A stretch of 48,089 nucleotides of DNA from Promethearchaeota archaeon (GTDB lineage: Archaea; Asgardarchaeota; Lokiarchaeia; Sigyniarchaeales; SOKP01), in contig JAEOTA010000074.1 in NCBI GenBank assembly GCA_016840085.1, forward strand, positions 1-48,089, given 5' to 3'. The position numbers and the translations under genes were made by a program. Position 1 is the stretch's first letter. The number at the start of each line of letters is the position of its first letter. This document shows, one piece after another, positions 1 through 48,089 of the stretch. A model generated the notes under the pieces. The model was not told where the DNA came from. It did no database searches and saw only the letters and a list, made by a program, of their open reading frames with translations.

Positions 1-118
1 ATAAAGAAAAAGTCAAAAAGTTAAAATCACGGGTTCTTTTTTAAGAAGTTGTGAATTTGTTTTTCTTTATATAGATTTAGTATAAGATCATATTAGATAC
101 ATATAAGGAGGTTATAGA

Positions 119-757
119 ATGAGGATTATTAAAGAAGGTAGATTAAAAGCTTCCGATGAATCTATTGAATTTTTTAAAAAATACTATAGAAGTATAGGAA
201 AAGTAAAATATTTTGTGCTTTATTATGCGGAAAGAGAATGGAAGATCAATCCAGATTTATATCATCAATATGTGATCGTCATAAGTGAGTATGCTCAATT
301 ATGGATGTCAGGTCTAACTTGGGGATATAATGGAACAGGACCGACAGATTTACGCGAGATAATGAATATGATTGATCCCGAGATTACCTGTAAACAGATT
401 ATAGATTTAGAGTGGATGGCCGATGATCCAATTGTGTTTGAAAATATGAATGGAAGACTGACTCTGAAGCCTTTCAATGACACAGTTCGTTCTTTACTGT
501 GCGACCAAGACAATAGATTACCATGGAGCATTAAAGGTTTTTATATAATTATTCTTATTATAAATCCTAATCGAAATGCAGTGAAAAGCTTCTTTCAAAC
601 GCTACCAGCCCAAACCACTCATCTAAATGGCTTCTTTCCGCATCCCCTATCTGATCCTCTTCCGCATTCGTTCTATGGGTTGAAAGTGTTATCACCCCAT
701 CGGAACGAGCCCATGAGCCGTCATTATCATTCGCAGAATTTTGCTTCACAAGGGTAA
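119..757 (+). CDS. Hypothetical protein with WGYxGTGP motif (DUF6166-like); C-terminal ~70 aa probably a spurious read-through
   Basis: Strong SD (aaggagg) before ATG. Motif LWMSGLTWGYNGTGPTDL. Composition changes after ...RLPWSIK, where the ORF runs antisense across the 567-893 fragment. Confidence 0.6.
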   Translation: MRIIKEGRLKASDESIEFFKKYYRSIGKVKYFVLYYAEREWKINPDLYHQYVIVISEYAQLWMSGLTWGYNGTGPTDLREIMNMIDPEITCKQIIDLEWMADDPIVFENMNGRLTLKPFNDTVRSLLCDQDNRLPWSIKGFYIIILIINPNRNAVKSFFQTLPAQTTHLNGFFPHPLSDPLPHSFYGLKVLSPHRNEPMSRHYHSQNFASQG

Positions 758-1899: not shown

Positions 1900-2070
1900 A
1901 TGAGAAAAGAGAAGACGATCTTTACTTTAGAAAATGTTAAATTATCTTCAATGGGCCCAGATACAATAGTTTACATTCCACGTGCTTTAATTAAGCATAA
2001 AGTTCTTGATCCTAATAAAATCTATAATATTCATTTCGAGGAAGTATCAGATGAGGATCACGGAAAATAG
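1900..2070 (+). CDS. 56-aa AbrB/MazE-like (swapped-hairpin) DNA-binding microprotein, not in ORF track
   Basis: Hand translation MRKEKTIFTLENVKLSSMGPDTIVYIPRALIKHKVLDPNKIYNIHFEEVSDEDHGK*. The pattern K-x3-G-x3-VYIP-x2-L...Y-x-I-x-F is typical of AbrB-like folds. Confidence 0.6.
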   Translation: MRKEKTIFTLENVKLSSMGPDTIVYIPRALIKHKVLDPNKIYNIHFEEVSDEDHGK

Positions 2071-2612
2071 GATTGTTTTTCTTCTCGATATGAGCAATGT
2101 TTAATAATCGTGAATTCTATATTATTATCTTCTAAAATTTTGACCATATTTGGATGATAATCTAATGCTATTTTCTTTTCTTCTTTGATTCTAATTGACT
2201 TAGGACTATAGATTTCATCAATAGGCTCCCTTAAGTGGATATAGCTTGATAAATATGCTGATTTATTATTATATTCAATATTGCAAATGTGATTTTCGAT
2301 TGGGATTATGATTTTATCCTTTCTTACTCCTTTAAATCGTACTGATACAGTTTTTTTATCATCTTCAATTTTAAAGTTTTTCACTAAATAAGGTAAATCA
2401 TCAGGATAAACTATTTTATAGAATTCTCGTTTCTTCCATTTTAGAATGTCATCTTTAGTATACCCAAAGATTTCTGTAAATCGTTTATTAAAGTACTTTA
2501 AAAATCCTCTCTGGATTATTAGAACTCCCATTATAGAATTATCTGCAACCCTGAGAAATGTTTCACTTCTCAATCGTGTAGTAAATTCCCCCTTTGTATT
2601 TATATCTGACAT
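2058..2612 (-). CDS. Stand-alone PAS domain protein (start revised to ATG 2612, MSDINTKG...)
   Basis: PAS signature NSIMGVLIIQ...YFNKRFTEIFGYTKDDI...VYPDD...RKD. No kinase domain. The N-terminus aligns with the paralog starting at 48028. Confidence 0.8.
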   Translation of the reverse strand: MSDINTKGEFTTRLRSETFLRVADNSIMGVLIIQRGFLKYFNKRFTEIFGYTKDDILKWKKREFYKIVYPDDLPYLVKNFKIEDDKKTVSVRFKGVRKDKIIIPIENHICNIEYNNKSAYLSSYIHLREPIDEIYSPKSIRIKEEKKIALDYHPNMVKILEDNNIEFTIIKHCSYREEKQSYFP

Positions 2613-2821
2613 TTTTTGCATTCTTTTATCTTCTGAGATTTTTTTGTCTAAAAAATTCCCTAATATATAAATTGATGATTTAATTTTAAATATTTTTGCC
2701 TTATTTAGTGATTTAATCGCCAATAATATTACAGAATTCATTTTATTTATCCTTTTTCAGATTGAACATTATGGTCCTATACGAGTTTTAGAAATTGCAA
2801 TCATTGACAGAAAGGTGAGAA

Positions 2822-2885
2822 GATTTATATACAAAAACTACTTAATGATCTATGGGATTTCTTATAGAAGTCCTTATAGAAATCT
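2822..2885 (+). promoter_or_regulatory. TATA box plus three 12-bp tandem repeats (copy 1)
   Basis: GATTTATATACAAAA (2822-2836), then CTATGGGATTTC / TTATAGAAGTCC / TTATAGAAATCT (2850-2885). Homologous to the reverse complement of 47780-47850. Confidence 0.6.
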
Positions 2886-2938
2886 AAATAAAATTTCAAA
2901 AATCTCCAAATATAAACAATATAAAGGAGTTGATGCGA

Positions 2939-3676
2939 ATGGCAAAAGAAATTTCGAAAATGATATTAGATGGAGAGGAATATTCGATATCTGAAGACCA
3001 GAAACATATTACGGGGCCTAAGAAGAAGTATACACAAGAAGATTTTAAAGAAGAAAAAGGAAAAAAAATACCTTTTTTAATAGCACCACCAGAAACAGCC
3101 AAAGATGGAATTATTTATGGTTTTTCTGATGAAGAGAAAATGGAAAAATGGTTAAAGGAAAAAAATCTGTTTAAAGAACATGAAAAACACAAAGAATTGA
3201 TGAAGAAAATTAAGAAAGAAAGATCCCCTGAAGAACTTGAGAAGATTAAACAATACCAAATTAAACAAGTAGAAAAAGATACTAAAAAATTCACCGAAAT
3301 CTTAGAGAAGCATAATCTAAAACCTGAACAAATCGACGAGTTAGAAAAGTTATCAGAAGATTATGATCCACATTTCAAACAAAAACCACGTAGTTTGTAT
3401 CTCTATGATCGTGTGTGGTGGGGGGGTCTGTATATAAAACTTAGAGGAGGACATCAATATTGTGGCAAGAGATATTCAATAGCTTATCCAGATCTTGGTT
3501 ATTTTGGCTTTGATAACAAAGCATCTTCACTAAAGATTAATTGCAGTAGCTATGGTTATATTTATACAGATAAATGGTATAAAGGAGCTTATTTTTATTT
3601 TTGGGTTAATCTACATGATTTAAATTTTTGGGGCTGGGGTTTCGGGAATTCTATATCATCTGCAATAGTATATTAG
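2939..3676 (+). CDS. Protein with a highly charged N-terminal region and a C-terminal beta/gamma-crystallin-like (inhibitor I36 / killer-toxin-like) domain
   Basis: Two Greek-key-type motifs: LYLYDRVWWGG...YPDLGYFGFDNKASSLKI and IYTDKWYKG...LHDLNFWGWGFGNSISSAIV. SD aaggag. Confidence 0.65.
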   Translation: MAKEISKMILDGEEYSISEDQKHITGPKKKYTQEDFKEEKGKKIPFLIAPPETAKDGIIYGFSDEEKMEKWLKEKNLFKEHEKHKELMKKIKKERSPEELEKIKQYQIKQVEKDTKKFTEILEKHNLKPEQIDELEKLSEDYDPHFKQKPRSLYLYDRVWWGGLYIKLRGGHQYCGKRYSIAYPDLGYFGFDNKASSLKINCSSYGYIYTDKWYKGAYFYFWVNLHDLNFWGWGFGNSISSAIVY

Positions 3677-4021
3677 AGCAACATAGTAACTGATTATTAG
3701 CTTGATAACTAATTATTAATCAATTTTTCTCTATCTATATTCCGTAATTAAAAATGTAAATGTTTGCATATTTGAATGTTTCTATAAAAATAGGGAAGAG
3801 AAATTTATTCAAAGATAATGTGAGCTAAACATTGGATTTCGCCCTTTATTAAACTCTATTGAGTTTAATCTCTCCCTGATATTTTTTAATTGCTCAAATT
3901 TCTTTTCTCTTCCCTTCTCTTTATGTCAGAATGTAGATAAATAACAAAAATTAAATTTAAATAAGTCGGGATATGGGATTAATATATTCTCAATACTACT
4001 TTTTGGAAATTTATTTTATAA

Positions 4022-4053
4022 ATGTGTACAAATATAAGTATGAGTACAAATAT
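4022..4053 (+). repeat. 14-bp direct repeat with 18-bp period (candidate operator)
   Basis: ATGTGTACAAATAT (4022-4035) and ATGAGTACAAATAT (4040-4053), 13/14 identical, just upstream of the 4080 microprotein. Confidence 0.5.
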
Positions 4054-4079
4054 TAATACACGGAAAGGAAGTGACTTAA

Positions 4080-4247
4080 ATAAGGCTAAAAGTATGTTTT
4101 AAATGTCATGAATACATACCTATTCTTGAGGATAATTATATCAATAAAGAAAAATTGGAAAAGTTTGATTCATTACATTTTGGCCATCCTGTTCAGATTG
4201 TAAATGAAGAAGAATTAGGGAATAAAAGAGAATGGAAACCATTTTAA
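4080..4247 (+). CDS. 55-aa CxxC...HxxH zinc-binding microprotein (copy 1, ATA start), not in ORF track
   Basis: IRLKVCFKCHEYIPILEDNYINKEKLEKFDSLHFGHPVQIVNEEELGNKREWKPF*. 41/55 identical to 46910-47080. SD-like ggaagtga; in-frame TAA directly before ATA. Confidence 0.8.
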   Translation: MRLKVCFKCHEYIPILEDNYINKEKLEKFDSLHFGHPVQIVNEEELGNKREWKPF

Positions 4248-5103: not shown

Positions 5104-5490
5104 TTAGTTTGCTCTTATTGTTTCTCTTAGTTTTTGTTCGATTTTTTCAATTTCTTTGAAATAATCATTATAGGTTTTCAAAAGATATTGACCCCAATTA
5201 TTTAATTTAACCCAACCTCCACCACCACTTCCTCCTTTACCAGTTATCACCACAGACATCCCTGTTCTTTTTTCAATTCTCTTTAAAATATTCCATGCAT
5301 ATTTATAAGAATAATTACACTCTTTAGCTGCTTGAGTTAATGAACCATCTTTCTTTCTTTCAATATTTTCAAGTAACTTAGCCCACCCCGCACCTAAAAT
5401 ACTTTTATTCTCAAATTTTAGCCAAAATTTTATTCCATAACTGATTTTAGATTTTAATTTTTCAATTTTGGGTTCATTTTCATTTGCCAT
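5104..5490 (-). CDS. ModE-family N-terminal winged-helix regulator
   Basis: KFWL...LGAG..KLLENI...GSLTQAAKECNYSYKYAWNILKRIE...GKGGSGGGG, the classic ModE N-terminal HTH. Confidence 0.85.
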   Translation of the reverse strand: MANENEPKIEKLKSKISYGIKFWLKFENKSILGAGWAKLLENIERKKDGSLTQAAKECNYSYKYAWNILKRIEKRTGMSVVITGKGGSGGGGWVKLNNWGQYLLKTYNDYFKEIEKIEQKLRETIRAN

Positions 5491-5591
5491 AATTATTATT
5501 TATTTATTTTCTAAATTTATATCTTTTAACAGAAAAAGATTAAAACAAGGGTAATTTTATTCGTTTAAAAGAAAGCTTGGAGTGAAATATT

Positions 5592-6341
5592 GTGTTCTTT
5601 TTTAAGGATGAATCTGAAAAAACAGGTAAAGAAGTTATCAAAAACCTATATTACTTCTCAGAAAATCAAATGCTCGATTGTAATCAATATATTATTGAAG
5701 ATCAGAGCTCTAATGAGTTAATTTTATTTGATGCTGGAAATGGAATTTCAATGAAAGGTTTATTTAAAGGTATGGAAAAATTTAAGCTAAATTATGAAAA
5801 TATTACAAAGGTGTTTTTAACGCATGAACATGTTGATCATGTATTGGGTGTCTACAAACTAATGAAACTTTTGGAGGATAATCCTCCAGAGATTTTTGCT
5901 TATGGAGAGACTGCAAAAATACTAGAAAAAGGAGAGGAAAGAAAGATTTTACCTGTATTTTTTGGTTTAACTGCAAGAAGATTCGAAGTTGAGATTATTC
6001 CTCTGAAAATTAATGATTTAAGTCATCTAAAAGAGATTGAAATATCACCAGAATTTAAATTTGAAATAATATATACACCAGGTCATTCTTTAGGTTCAAT
6101 ATGTTATTATGAATCTGAAAAAAAAGTGTTAATCCCTGGAGATTTAGTCTTTATAGGAGGTAGTTTTGGGAGATATGATTTTCCGGGAGGATCATTGAAT
6201 ACATTAATAAATTCAATAAAAAATGTAAATAATTTGGATGTAAAGTATTTGCTTCCTGGTCATATGGGGATAAGTGATCAGGGTAACCAGCAAATTGCTT
6301 ATTCTTATAGAATGATACAATCTATTAATTCCTTTTATTAA
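5592..6341 (+). CDS. MBL-fold metallo-hydrolase (glyoxalase II-like)
   Basis: THEHVDH, TPGHSLGS, GDLVF, GRYDFPGG, PGH motifs. Confidence 0.9.
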   Translation: MFFFKDESEKTGKEVIKNLYYFSENQMLDCNQYIIEDQSSNELILFDAGNGISMKGLFKGMEKFKLNYENITKVFLTHEHVDHVLGVYKLMKLLEDNPPEIFAYGETAKILEKGEERKILPVFFGLTARRFEVEIIPLKINDLSHLKEIEISPEFKFEIIYTPGHSLGSICYYESEKKVLIPGDLVFIGGSFGRYDFPGGSLNTLINSIKNVNNLDVKYLLPGHMGISDQGNQQIAYSYRMIQSINSFY

Positions 6342-44860: not shown

Positions 44861-45235
44861 GTGAAAGTTAATAAGATACCGATAAGACCAAATAAGATAG
44901 GAATAGATCTAATATTGTGTCCAAAAACAAATTTATATTTACAAGATTTATTTTGTCGTAGATGTCCTTATTTTGAATTCGATAACGAAAAATTTATTCA
45001 GTGTAATTTTACAGGACATAGATATGGTAAGTCAGATCCCGTTAAAGATAGATTAATTAAGGATCTTTCTGATGCATTTATTAGAGAACTTCCAATAAAA
45101 GATAAAAAAAGACCAATGACTAATTTTACAGAGAGGTTAAAAAAGCCTAAATCACCAAAAACTAAAGAAGAATTATTAATGGAAGAACTTTCTCAACATT
45201 TAAAAAAAAAGACTAAGAATTTCCATAATAATTAA
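44861..45235 (+). CDS. Four-cysteine metal-binding protein with basic/helical tail
   Basis: CP-x10-CRRC-x12-C; C-terminal KEELLMEELSQHLKKK. Confidence 0.6.
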   Translation: MKVNKIPIRPNKIGIDLILCPKTNLYLQDLFCRRCPYFEFDNEKFIQCNFTGHRYGKSDPVKDRLIKDLSDAFIRELPIKDKKRPMTNFTERLKKPKSPKTKEELLMEELSQHLKKKTKNFHNN

Positions 45236-46352: not shown

Positions 46353-46766
46353 TCAATTCCCAAAGAATCCATCAAATTTATTCGCATCATAATCCCAATC
46401 TAATATCTCATCTTCTGAATACCGTGAAAAGAATCGTGTCAGGATTGCATATAATTCCTTAGAACATTTCTTTTCTTTTATCAACTGGAAAATTTTCAAA
46501 GTATATTTCTTGATTGGATATAATCCCATAAATATAACCATAACTTCTTCTTCTCCTCTTATTATTTTTTTAGATATTAACTGTAATTGAGAATTGTCTA
46601 AAGTAATTGTTTTAACACTTTCAGAAAATGTGCTTTTGACAGCAGTAAAGAGCGCCCCCATTATTCCCGCTAAAATTGTATCATCAACTTCTATTATATC
46701 ATTTTTTTGATATAATAACACTCCAAGATCTTTAAAAATCCATAAAGCTTTGATATATTTTATCAT
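46353..46766 (-). CDS. Longin-like (profilin-fold) domain protein
   Basis: IKALWIF..LGVLLY...DDTILAGIMGAL..AVK..F.E.VKTITL...L matches the beta-beta-alpha-beta-beta-beta longin pattern common in Asgard archaea. Confidence 0.7.
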   Translation of the reverse strand: MIKYIKALWIFKDLGVLLYQKNDIIEVDDTILAGIMGALFTAVKSTFSESVKTITLDNSQLQLISKKIIRGEEEVMVIFMGLYPIKKYTLKIFQLIKEKKCSKELYAILTRFFSRYSEDEILDWDYDANKFDGFFGN

Positions 46767-46909
46767 TTGTTTTTAAGTTAGTTAAATTCCAAACCCAATG
46801 CAAGATTTTGATTATTACTATGCAACAAACATTATTTCGAGAATTTCTATTCTTCATTTATTTTTCCCTCTCTTCAAAAAATATAATAACTTTCTTTTTC
46901 TTTTTTTTT

Positions 46910-47080
46910 TTATAAAAAAGGTTTCCACTCCTCTATATTCATTATTTCTTCTTTATTTACAATCTGAACAGGATGACCAGAATGTAATGAATCGAATTTT
47001 TCCAATTGTTCCTTATTCAAATAATCATTTTCAAGAATCGGTATATATTCACGGCACATAAAACATACTTTTACTCGCAT
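46910..47080 (-). CDS. 56-aa CxxC...HxxH zinc-binding microprotein (copy 2), not in ORF track
   Basis: MRVKVCFMCREYIPILENDYLNKEQLEKFDSLHSGHPVQIVNKEEIMNIEEWKPFL*. Strong SD gaaggagaggt. 41/55 identical to 4080-4247. Confidence 0.88.
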   Translation of the reverse strand: MRVKVCFMCREYIPILENDYLNKEQLEKFDSLHSGHPVQIVNKEEIMNIEEWKPFL

Positions 47081-47108
47081 TAATTTTATACCTCTCCTTC
47101 TTTAACAA

Positions 47109-47645
47109 TTAAGCATAACCTTCAAATTTCATTATAGTTCTTGTTAAAAATTCAAACATCTTATCAACATTTTTTCCAGTTTTAGAGGAGCATTCGAAAT
47201 ATTTAAAGAATTTATATTTTTTTGAGATTTTTTTAGCAGATCTTCGAGATATCATTCGTTTTTTAGAGAGATCTAACTTTCCACCAACCATTAATATAGG
47301 GATTTCTTTTTTATCATCAGATAAACTTTCTTTAAATGCTCCTAACCAATCTTCTATATTCCTTAAACTGGAATATTTAGTAATATCATACATAAAAATT
47401 CCTCCTGCTGCCCCTCTTGTAAAAGCGGGGAAAATAAATTTAAAGCTTAACTCAGTTCCAAGGATCCAAATTTGAAGAGTTATTTTAAAAGAATCTATTG
47501 TTAACGTCTTAACTGCAATATCAACACCCATAGGTGGCTTAGTATTCTTATTGAACGTTTCAAGAGCAAATGTACGAATTAATAAAAATTTTCCAACATT
47601 CTTTTCGCCAAAAATACATATTTTGAAGATTAAATCCTTGTTAAT
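47109..47645 (-). CDS. Degenerate Rab-like GTPase (pseudo-GTPase); extended 38 codons upstream to a probable ATT start
   Basis: The upstream in-frame segment INKDLIFKICIFGEKNVGKFLLIRTF...TKPP supplies beta1 and the P-loop. SD gaggtg lies 7 nt before ATT, with an in-frame TAG just upstream. G4 GKLD, G5 CSSK. Confidence 0.8.
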   Translation of the reverse strand: MNKDLIFKICIFGEKNVGKFLLIRTFALETFNKNTKPPMGVDIAVKTLTIDSFKITLQIWILGTELSFKFIFPAFTRGAAGGIFMYDITKYSSLRNIEDWLGAFKESLSDDKKEIPILMVGGKLDLSKKRMISRRSAKKISKKYKFFKYFECSSKTGKNVDKMFEFLTRTIMKFEGYA

Positions 47646-47779
47646 TTTCTTACACCTCTAATTTTTTAAAAGCTTCCAAGTTTTCTTTTACCTATAGAAT
47701 CTATTAATCATTTCTATTGGCATTTTTTATCTAACTTAAAAGTAAAAGTAAATCCTTATACCTTATTTTATTATAACAG

Positions 47780-47850
47780 GGGTTTTTATAGGTGACCCTA
47801 TAGAAGATCCTATATAACAATAAAATAGTCAAAAATTTTGTATTTAAATC
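47780..47850 (-). promoter_or_regulatory. TATA box plus three 12-bp tandem repeats (copy 2)
   Basis: Minus strand GATTTAAATACAAAA (47850-47836), then ATATAGGATCTT / CTATAGGGTCAC / CTATAAAAACCC (47815-47780). Confidence 0.6.
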
Positions 47851-48027
47851 TTTACTTCTTTATTTTTTCTTTAAATAATTTTAGTATTATTGATGATGTG
47901 CGTCATTTTCTATAATAGAAATACTAAAGTGATTAATTTAATAAAAGATAAATATTATAATTTTATCTTATTTATAGTAAGATTAAAAGCATAAGAATAG
48001 AATTTTAATTTAAGGAGTGTAAAATAA

Positions 48028-48089
48028 ATGTCAGAAGCAACAATTAATGAGGAATTTACTACTAAACTGAAAAATGAGCAATTTCTCTA
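48028..48089 (+). CDS. Start of a second PAS protein paralog (cut by the window edge)
   Basis: MSEATINEEFTTKLKNEQFL vs MSDINTKGEFTTRLRSETFL (10/20 identical, ungapped); SD aaggagtg. Confidence 0.65.
   Translation, partial: MSEATINEEFTTKLKNEQFL

What the first reader, a model, noticed from the sequence alone, without database searches (positions are those of the whole stretch)
46353..48089. Duplicated PAS / repeat-promoter / variable-cargo / zinc-microprotein module; the right copy carries a pseudo-Rab and a longin
Seen: the same architecture occurs at 2058-4247 and, inverted, at 46910-48089. It comprises a stand-alone PAS gene (N-termini 10/20 identical), a divergent homologous promoter (GATTTAWATACAAAA plus three 12-bp repeats, ~215-240 bp from the PAS start), one cargo gene and a CxxC..HxxH microprotein (41/55 identical). 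The cargo differs: crystallin-like protein on the left, degenerate Rab-like GTPase on the right, where a longin-like gene follows. Established: longin domains are the scaffold of eukaryotic Rab GEFs (Mon1-Ccz1, TRAPP, uDENN), and PAS domains are sensors. Inference: an undescribed Asgard signalling cassette coupling a kinase-less PAS sensor and a Zn microprotein to a small-GTPase/longin switch, with an exchangeable cargo slot.
Basis: partly seen in the sequence, partly recalled or inferred. Interest (0 to 1): 0.85.

Follow-up and report, generated by a model that had tools for sequence, protein, structure and literature searches.

The report
Small repressor switch controlling Asgard pseudo-GTPase
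In a group of Asgard (Loki) archaea, a tiny AbrB-type DNA-binding gene paired with a PAS sensor gene travels with a rare three-repeat promoter site placed in front of swappable genes, most often a Rab-like GTPase that has lost its switch residues; this is a testable candidate for how these relatives of eukaryotes control such genes.

Summary
The conserved unit is a 56-aa AbrB/MazE-like gene converging on a stand-alone PAS gene (47/61 assessable loci). Upstream of PAS lies a TATA-like box followed by three 12-bp-period CTATAG palindromes (44/61 loci). This array is rare in the genome (about 10 sites, period 12 only) and faces a variable gene. That gene is most often a monophyletic Rab-like GTPase lacking the G3 Asp and Gly (27/57 loci), often followed by the Zn microprotein (12/21). 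The contig-end ORF is a true PAS paralog (19/20 aa identical to a full-length copy). The longin is a real Mon1-type domain, but it follows the GTPase only here and in two 87-91% identical relatives, and in none of 19 held-out loci. Best reading: a lineage-restricted, multi-copy, recombining regulon repressed by the AbrB-like protein; binding is inferred, not shown. Many of these genes appear to start at ATT/ATA. I found no paper describing it. First-stage readers of this scan noted the same PAS+AbrB cassette on other DNA; I saw those notes after reaching this reading.

The parts
1900..2070 (+).
   Evidence: AF2 model pLDDT 84, hairpin then helix; 6 of 7 weak Foldseek hits (E 2-10) are RIFT Ph1, MazE or VapBC2 chains; Atlas MazE_antitoxin cluster TM 0.58; dN/dS 0.13; convergent with PAS in 47/61 loci
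2058..2612 (-). Stand-alone PAS protein (184 aa): PAS domain plus a conserved ~50-aa C-terminal segment ending S(Y/F)REE; no kinase domain
   Evidence: dN/dS 0.21
2822..2836 (+). TATA-like box facing the cargo gene
   Evidence: TT(T/A)A(A/T)AT lies 22-33 bp upstream of the repeat array in 13 of 17 loci
2847..2882 (.). Three 12-bp-period palindromic units (core CTATAG): candidate operator
2939..3676 (+). Left cargo: 245-aa protein with a C-terminal beta/gamma-crystallin-like domain; homologs elsewhere lack the operator and PAS
3750..3960 (.). Dispersed ~200-bp non-coding repeat upstream of the left microprotein; not PAS-linked
4080..4247 (+). CxxC..HxxH microprotein, left copy; begins at ATA directly after an in-frame stop
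   Evidence: dN/dS 0.34 among ATA copies
46353..46766 (-). Stand-alone Mon1/Fuz-type longin domain protein; lineage-specific passenger
46910..47080 (-). CxxC..HxxH microprotein, right copy; 28 bp behind the GTPase stop, with its own Shine-Dalgarno site
   Evidence: dN/dS 0.23; Promethearchaeota family of unknown function
47109..47645 (-). Rab-like GTPase of a G3-degenerate subfamily (WILGTE instead of WDxxGQ; in this copy also GKF in G1); probable ATT start 7 nt after GAGGTG
   Evidence: dN/dS 0.38
47783..47818 (.). Three 12-bp-period palindromic units: candidate operator, right copy
47836..47850 (-). TATA-like box facing the GTPase
48028..48089 (+). First 20 codons of a PAS paralog, cut by the contig end
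   Evidence: 19/20 aa identical to the full-length C18/C27 paralog; G015 carries the whole locus at 90% identity, with full PAS and AbrB-like genes

Best explanation
A small, lineage-restricted, multi-copy regulon of Loki-type Asgard archaea. Shown: a constant gene pair (AbrB-like gene converging on a stand-alone PAS gene) travels with a rare array of three 12-bp-period CTATAG palindromes placed just downstream of a TATA-like box and mostly 25-75 bp before the start of a variable gene. That gene is most often a Rab-like GTPase without the G3 Asp and Gly, followed by a Zn microprotein or a ~220-aa helical protein; TIR, crystallin-like, membrane and other genes also fill the slot. Inferred: AbrB-like dimers bind the three palindromes over the transcription start and block RNA polymerase, as MDR1 and LrpA do downstream of the TATA box, and probably also control their own promoter. 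The PAS protein is the probable sensor that modulates this repression; its ligand is unknown. The GTPase most likely still binds nucleotide but cannot cycle, so it would act as a low-level (near-cognate start codon) scaffold or decoy rather than a switch. Cargo is reshuffled by homologous recombination among paralogous copies. The longin is a recent passenger.
For: Linkage: AbrB convergent in 47/61 PAS loci, array in 44/61, GTPase first in 27/57. Specificity: 11 strong hits in 4.68 Mb at period 12 versus 0-1 at periods 10, 11, 13, 14, 15; held-out loci give 24 hits at period 12 and 0 at the other four periods tested. The array stays beside the AbrB-like gene where PAS is absent or deleted (G001, G014, G016, G030, G097, G103), and two arrays lie between two divergent AbrB-like genes with no PAS in another genus (G081, L209). 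Two PAS loci without AbrB lack the array (L168, L173). One unit lies 53 bp upstream of the AbrB start in 37/50 loci. Fold. E. coli MazE, the same fold, binds a three-site operator (PMC4333400). Repression downstream of TATA is established for LrpA and MDR1 (PMC2995911). G3 loss in all 27 members of one clade, support 0.97. Purifying selection on the core genes. Mosaic junctions at gene ends, 47098-47104 and 47644-47647.
Against: No binding or expression data. Each fold hit for the AbrB-like protein is weak alone (E>=2), and Pfam has no AbrB match. Strong arrays occur in genomes with no detected AbrB gene (G018, G019, G022; 79-92% complete), and some AbrB copies have no array nearby (G005, G026, G096:C29). 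The unit at -53 may simply be the AbrB gene's TATA box. Loci are kin and partly the same organisms, so the counts are not independent and linkage may reflect descent. The window's own GTPase copy is more degenerate than most (GKF; only an ATT start) and may be non-functional.
Confidence: 0.58

Rival explanations
1. One reading: PAS and the Zn microprotein feed a GTPase/longin (GEF) switch as a protein-level signalling cassette.
For: The longin is a real Mon1-type domain and co-oriented 143 bp behind the microprotein. The microprotein follows the GTPase in 12/21 loci. A second, 27% identical longin sits behind an array in G025.
Against: Longin on the cargo side in 3/38 loci, all close kin, and 0/19 held-out loci. 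G3 is lost throughout the subfamily. Loki genomes carry about 41 longin domains (PMC10933270), so chance neighbours are expected. The microprotein family mostly occurs away from GTPases.
Confidence: 0.07
2. The array is bound by another factor (the PAS protein's C-terminal segment, or a regulator encoded elsewhere); the AbrB-like gene is only linked.
For: The array lies directly upstream of PAS in most loci; arrays exist in genomes without a detected AbrB gene; the PAS C-terminal segment is conserved.
Against: The array persists next to AbrB after PAS loss and lies between divergent AbrB-like genes in G081. The PAS C-terminus models as one short helix with no recognisable DNA-binding fold.
Confidence: 0.12
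3. A selfish, addiction-like or stress/defence unit: the AbrB-like protein acts as an antitoxin-type repressor and the cargo genes (dead GTPase, TIR and others) are toxic effectors kept silent.
For: MazE/VapB-type fold and three-site operator; patchy, multi-copy distribution (24/53 genus members, up to 4 copies); a ThsB-like TIR cargo; weak start codons.
Against: No known toxin, PADLOC or PHROG match for the core or usual cargo; none in viral contigs. The AbrB-like protein has only a short tail and is not co-transcribed with the cargo. No transposase, integrase or terminal repeat was seen consistently beside it, and some loci are syntenic across species.
Confidence: 0.13
4. No functional unit: a patchwork of duplicated accessory genes in plastic genome regions, held together by descent alone.
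For: Many dispersed repeats and mosaics surround these loci; G000 has 7.6% contamination; the left microprotein and the crystallin gene move independently.
Against: Constant geometry at dS near 1; dN/dS 0.13-0.38; array conserved with strict 12-bp period while flanking non-coding DNA diverges; several copies lie on single contigs (this window; G096:C24).
Confidence: 0.1

Closest known systems
MazE / VapB2 / AbrB swapped-hairpin regulators (e.g. E. coli mazEF 'cab' operator, PMC4333400)
   Same: Small swapped-hairpin protein; three adjacent AT-cored palindromic sites in a promoter; probable autoregulation.
   Different: No cognate toxin in an operon; partner is a convergent PAS gene; operators lie before other, variable genes; archaeal TATA promoter; no Pfam match.
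Archaeal repressors MDR1 (Archaeoglobus fulgidus) and LrpA (Pyrococcus furiosus) (PMC2995911)
   Same: Sites immediately downstream of the TATA box, over the predicted transcription start.
   Different: Different DNA-binding fold (my knowledge); sensing would here be by a separate PAS protein.
Asgard Rab-like GTPases with longin/roadblock regulators (PMC10933270; PDB 7EZB)
   Same: Rab-like fold (E=2e-26 to Thorarchaeota Rab); Mon1-type longin domain nearby.
   Different: G3 Asp and Gly absent; GTPase-longin adjacency not conserved. That paper notes that MK-D1 GTPase genes generally lack such operons and suggests transcription-factor control.
Eukaryotic atypical or pseudo small GTPases such as the RGK family (from my own knowledge)
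   Same: Altered G3/switch II with P-loop, G4 and G5 mostly retained.
   Different: Independent origin within a Loki Rab-like expansion; no relationship to these families was tested.

Membership tests
AbrB/MazE swapped-hairpin regulators | beta-hairpin, helix, strand topology forming a swapped dimer | tested here: inconclusive
   Monomer model shows hairpin and helix; 6/7 Foldseek hits are from this fold but E>=2; Atlas TM 0.58 to a MazE cluster; dimer not assessed
AbrB/MazE swapped-hairpin regulators | Pfam MazE_antitoxin/AbrB profile match | tested here: not met
   0 of 25 aligned members
AbrB/MazE swapped-hairpin regulators | Binds palindromic operator DNA | not testable with these tools
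   Only co-occurrence with the array
Type II toxin-antitoxin module | Cognate toxin co-transcribed with the antitoxin | tested here: not met
   Neighbour is a convergent PAS gene; no toxin match
PAS domain proteins | PAS fold | tested here: met
Two-component sensor kinase | Kinase output domain | tested here: not met
   About 180 aa with only PAS matches in all aligned members
Canonical Rab/Ras GTPase switch | G1 GxxxxGK(S/T) | tested here: not met
   Window copy has GKF; most paralogs keep GKT/GKS
Canonical Rab/Ras GTPase switch | G3 DxxG | tested here: not met
   Absent in all 27 clade members; Asp present in 51 of the 58 GTPase-like ORFs of G000
Canonical Rab/Ras GTPase switch | G4/G5 guanine-binding motifs | tested here: met
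   GKLD (an xKxD form common in this genome) and ECSSK
Longin (Mon1/Fuz first longin) domain | Profile homology to longin domains | tested here: met
   Family profile hits Mon1, SRX and AP-1 mu; Fuz_longin_1 in 16/18 members, though not the window protein alone
Longin GEF for the adjacent GTPase | Conserved partnership with the GTPase | tested here: not met
   3/38 and 0/19 loci
Autonomous mobile element or provirus | Transposase/integrase, terminal repeats or viral occurrence | tested here: inconclusive
   None seen consistently in ORF listings; no IMG/VR hit; no dedicated terminal-repeat search was run and many contigs are short

The most novel reading that the evidence does not exclude
This is a dedicated transcription factor-operator pair, tuned by a stand-alone PAS sensor, that controls a eukaryotic-signature small GTPase gene in Asgard archaea; the controlled GTPase is a non-cycling pseudo-GTPase that works with a Zn microprotein as a decoy or scaffold for the cell's large Rab-like network.
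Probability: 0.3. Interest if true: 0.8.

Novelty: new variant of a known kind. Interest (0 to 1): 0.58.

Why it matters
How Asgard archaea control their many eukaryote-like small GTPases is open; one structural study suggested transcription-factor control because operons are rare (PMC10933270). This locus offers a concrete candidate: a 56-aa protein, a 36-bp site and a defined set of target genes, testable in vitro without culturing the host. It also defines a pseudo-GTPase subfamily under purifying selection. The scope is limited: it was found in one family of Loki-type archaea, so it is a lineage-specific invention and says little directly about the eukaryotic ancestor.

Tried and rejected
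Complex prediction of two AbrB-like chains with the PAS protein gave no verdict (score 0.17, mark 0.32); it is not used as evidence either way. A loose pattern (YTATAR x3, 1 mismatch) did not discriminate from its control; a stricter pattern and a weight matrix did. I first read the window GTPase as a start-less pseudogene (note 2) and withdrew this: ATT aligns with ATG in paralogs and has a Shine-Dalgarno site at the right distance; loss of function is still possible. The 1-nt spacer insertion near 47645 is matched without difference by a public-run contig, which may come from the source sample. PADLOC, PHROGs and IMG/VR gave nothing for the core. A single-sequence PDB search for the crystallin domain gave only antibody noise; the profile search worked. 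No Rfam match for the dispersed repeat. Paper searches for Loki AbrB regulators, Asgard pseudoGTPases, Asgard non-canonical starts and Asgard regulons found no description of this locus.

Full report
Setting. The window is the whole contig C71 of a 4.68-Mb assembly, 98.8% complete and 7.6% contaminated. Atlas clusters for its proteins are Promethearchaeota. It carries 58 small-GTPase-like ORFs, and the best public runs are marine sediments.

Observation. The contig-end ORF at 48028 is a PAS paralog: window 47098-48089 is 91% identical to the end of contig C18, whose PAS gene continues into C27, and a relative (G015) has the entire right-hand locus at 90% identity with full PAS and AbrB-like genes. 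The PAS fold is confirmed by Pfam and by structure. The crystallin-like and longin labels both hold with family profiles.

What was missed. A 56-aa gene at 1900-2070 converges on the left PAS gene. It is the most conserved part of the unit (dN/dS 0.13) and lies in this position in 47 of 61 assessable PAS loci from genomes and metagenome contigs. Its model has a hairpin and a helix, and its structural neighbours are RIFT, MazE and VapBC2 chains, each weak alone but consistent. It was found in 24/53 other genomes of the genus, 7/81 of the rest of the family and 0/19 of other families searched, in up to four copies.

The repeat promoter. The three units are palindromes with core CTATAG and a strict 12-bp period. 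A matrix trained on other PAS loci and these two finds 11 strong hits in the genome at period 12 and 0-1 at five other periods; locally shuffled DNA gives 2 hits at a looser cut-off that gives 15 in the real genome. In 19 held-out loci there are 23 arrays and none at four other periods. A TATA-like box lies 22-33 bp upstream in the cargo direction, so the array covers the expected transcription start (inference from standard archaeal promoter geometry). It stands mostly 25-75 bp before the start of whichever gene follows: GTPase, TIR, crystallin-like, microprotein, a second longin, membrane or secreted proteins. This is where LrpA and MDR1 block polymerase (PMC2995911), and MazE uses a three-site operator (PMC4333400).

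Which protein reads it. The array remains beside the AbrB-like gene where PAS is missing or reduced to a C-terminal stub. In G081, another genus, two arrays lie between two divergent AbrB-like genes with no PAS. Two PAS loci without AbrB lack it. One unit lies at -53 of the AbrB start in 37/50 loci, against 6% of shuffles scoring as well, though it may double as a TATA box. Counter-examples exist: arrays in G018, G019 and G022 with no AbrB hit, and AbrB copies with no array. The assignment is probable, not shown.

Cargo. The first divergent gene is the GTPase in 27 of 57 loci. After it comes a microprotein in 12, a ~220-aa helical protein in 6, a longin in 1 and other genes in 2 of 21 assessable loci. 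The GTPases form one clade (support 0.97) in which G3 DxxG is always replaced, while G4, G5 and usually G1 remain; dN/dS is 0.38. By established GTPase chemistry this removes Mg2+ coordination and the gamma-phosphate switch, so a normal GEF/GAP cycle is unlikely. The window copy also has GKF in G1, shared with one metagenome contig whose GTPase is 96.6% identical but has different flanks. Homology among copies breaks at the gene ends, which fits exchange by homologous recombination; I saw no specific recombination site. The crystallin-like gene occurs elsewhere without array or PAS, so it was recruited. The left microprotein travels with a separate dispersed repeat, so the left copy is a mosaic.

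Longin. Close homologs exist only in this genome, G015 and three metagenome proteins, 87-96% identical. It is on the cargo side in 3 of 38 loci and in none of the held-out loci. More distant family members have no GTPase or PAS within 1.5 kb. With about 41 longin domains per Loki genome (PMC10933270), one lineage-specific adjacency is weak evidence.

Start codons. At the homologous start position the GTPases have ATT (12), ATA (5), ATG (4), TTT (3) or ACG (1). Several, including the window copy, have no canonical start in frame and a Shine-Dalgarno site 6-7 nt upstream, while others have an in-frame GTG three codons earlier that could serve instead. Five microprotein copies start at ATA directly after a stop and remain under selection. 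An earlier follow-up in this scan reported non-ATG starts in a Loki genome.

Caveats. Counts mix kin and possibly the same organisms, and the automated tally includes a few partial PAS hits. No expression or binding data were available.

Verdict. A real and apparently undescribed regulatory unit, best filed as a new variant of swapped-hairpin repressor modules. Interest 0.58.

Noticed in passing
window 47645 and 4080; GTPase and microprotein paralogs in L068-L180: ATT, ATA and ACG replace ATG at the homologous start position behind a Shine-Dalgarno site, in several copies with an in-frame stop just upstream; suggests near-cognate initiation.
   Followed up: partly
window 3750-3960; also C4, C18, C27, C34, C49, C54 and loci L072, L074, L081, L083, L142: Dispersed ~200-bp non-coding repeat, 81-95% identical, folding better than mononucleotide shuffles (z about -3.5), no Rfam match; possible MITE or structured RNA.
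   Followed up: partly
L209 (G081:C37, locus 5471-5928): Two divergent AbrB-like genes with two triple arrays between them and no PAS gene.
   Followed up: partly
L068:7885-8538, L070:4083-4802; G000 C18:27548-28228: Frequent cargo of ~220 aa, helical and internally repeated, with no family match; related repeats occur on C19 around 222100-225500.
   Followed up: no
L076:1639-2130, L067:7822-8235: Stand-alone ThsB-like TIR genes placed directly behind the array (PADLOC E=2.8e-10 for the L076 copy).
   Followed up: no
G000 C84:24078, C3:318, C1:7153: The array precedes three near-identical genes for a probably secreted protein, away from any PAS or AbrB-like gene; likely targets in trans.
   Followed up: partly
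window 44861-45235: 124-aa Cys-rich protein with related copies on C1, C20 and C78 and in other genomes, sometimes near array-bearing loci.
   Followed up: no
G000 C34:688-948: Microprotein copy behind a GTPase is intact for only 24 codons and then replaced by unrelated sequence.
   Followed up: no
L163:1287-3155: GTPase gene interrupted by about 1.1 kb of other sequence, with an intact copy beside it.
   Followed up: no
window 1-123: Overlaps contig C10 exactly; C10 carries accessory genes including what looks by eye like an MCM N-terminal fragment, suggesting a plastic region to the left of the window.
   Followed up: no
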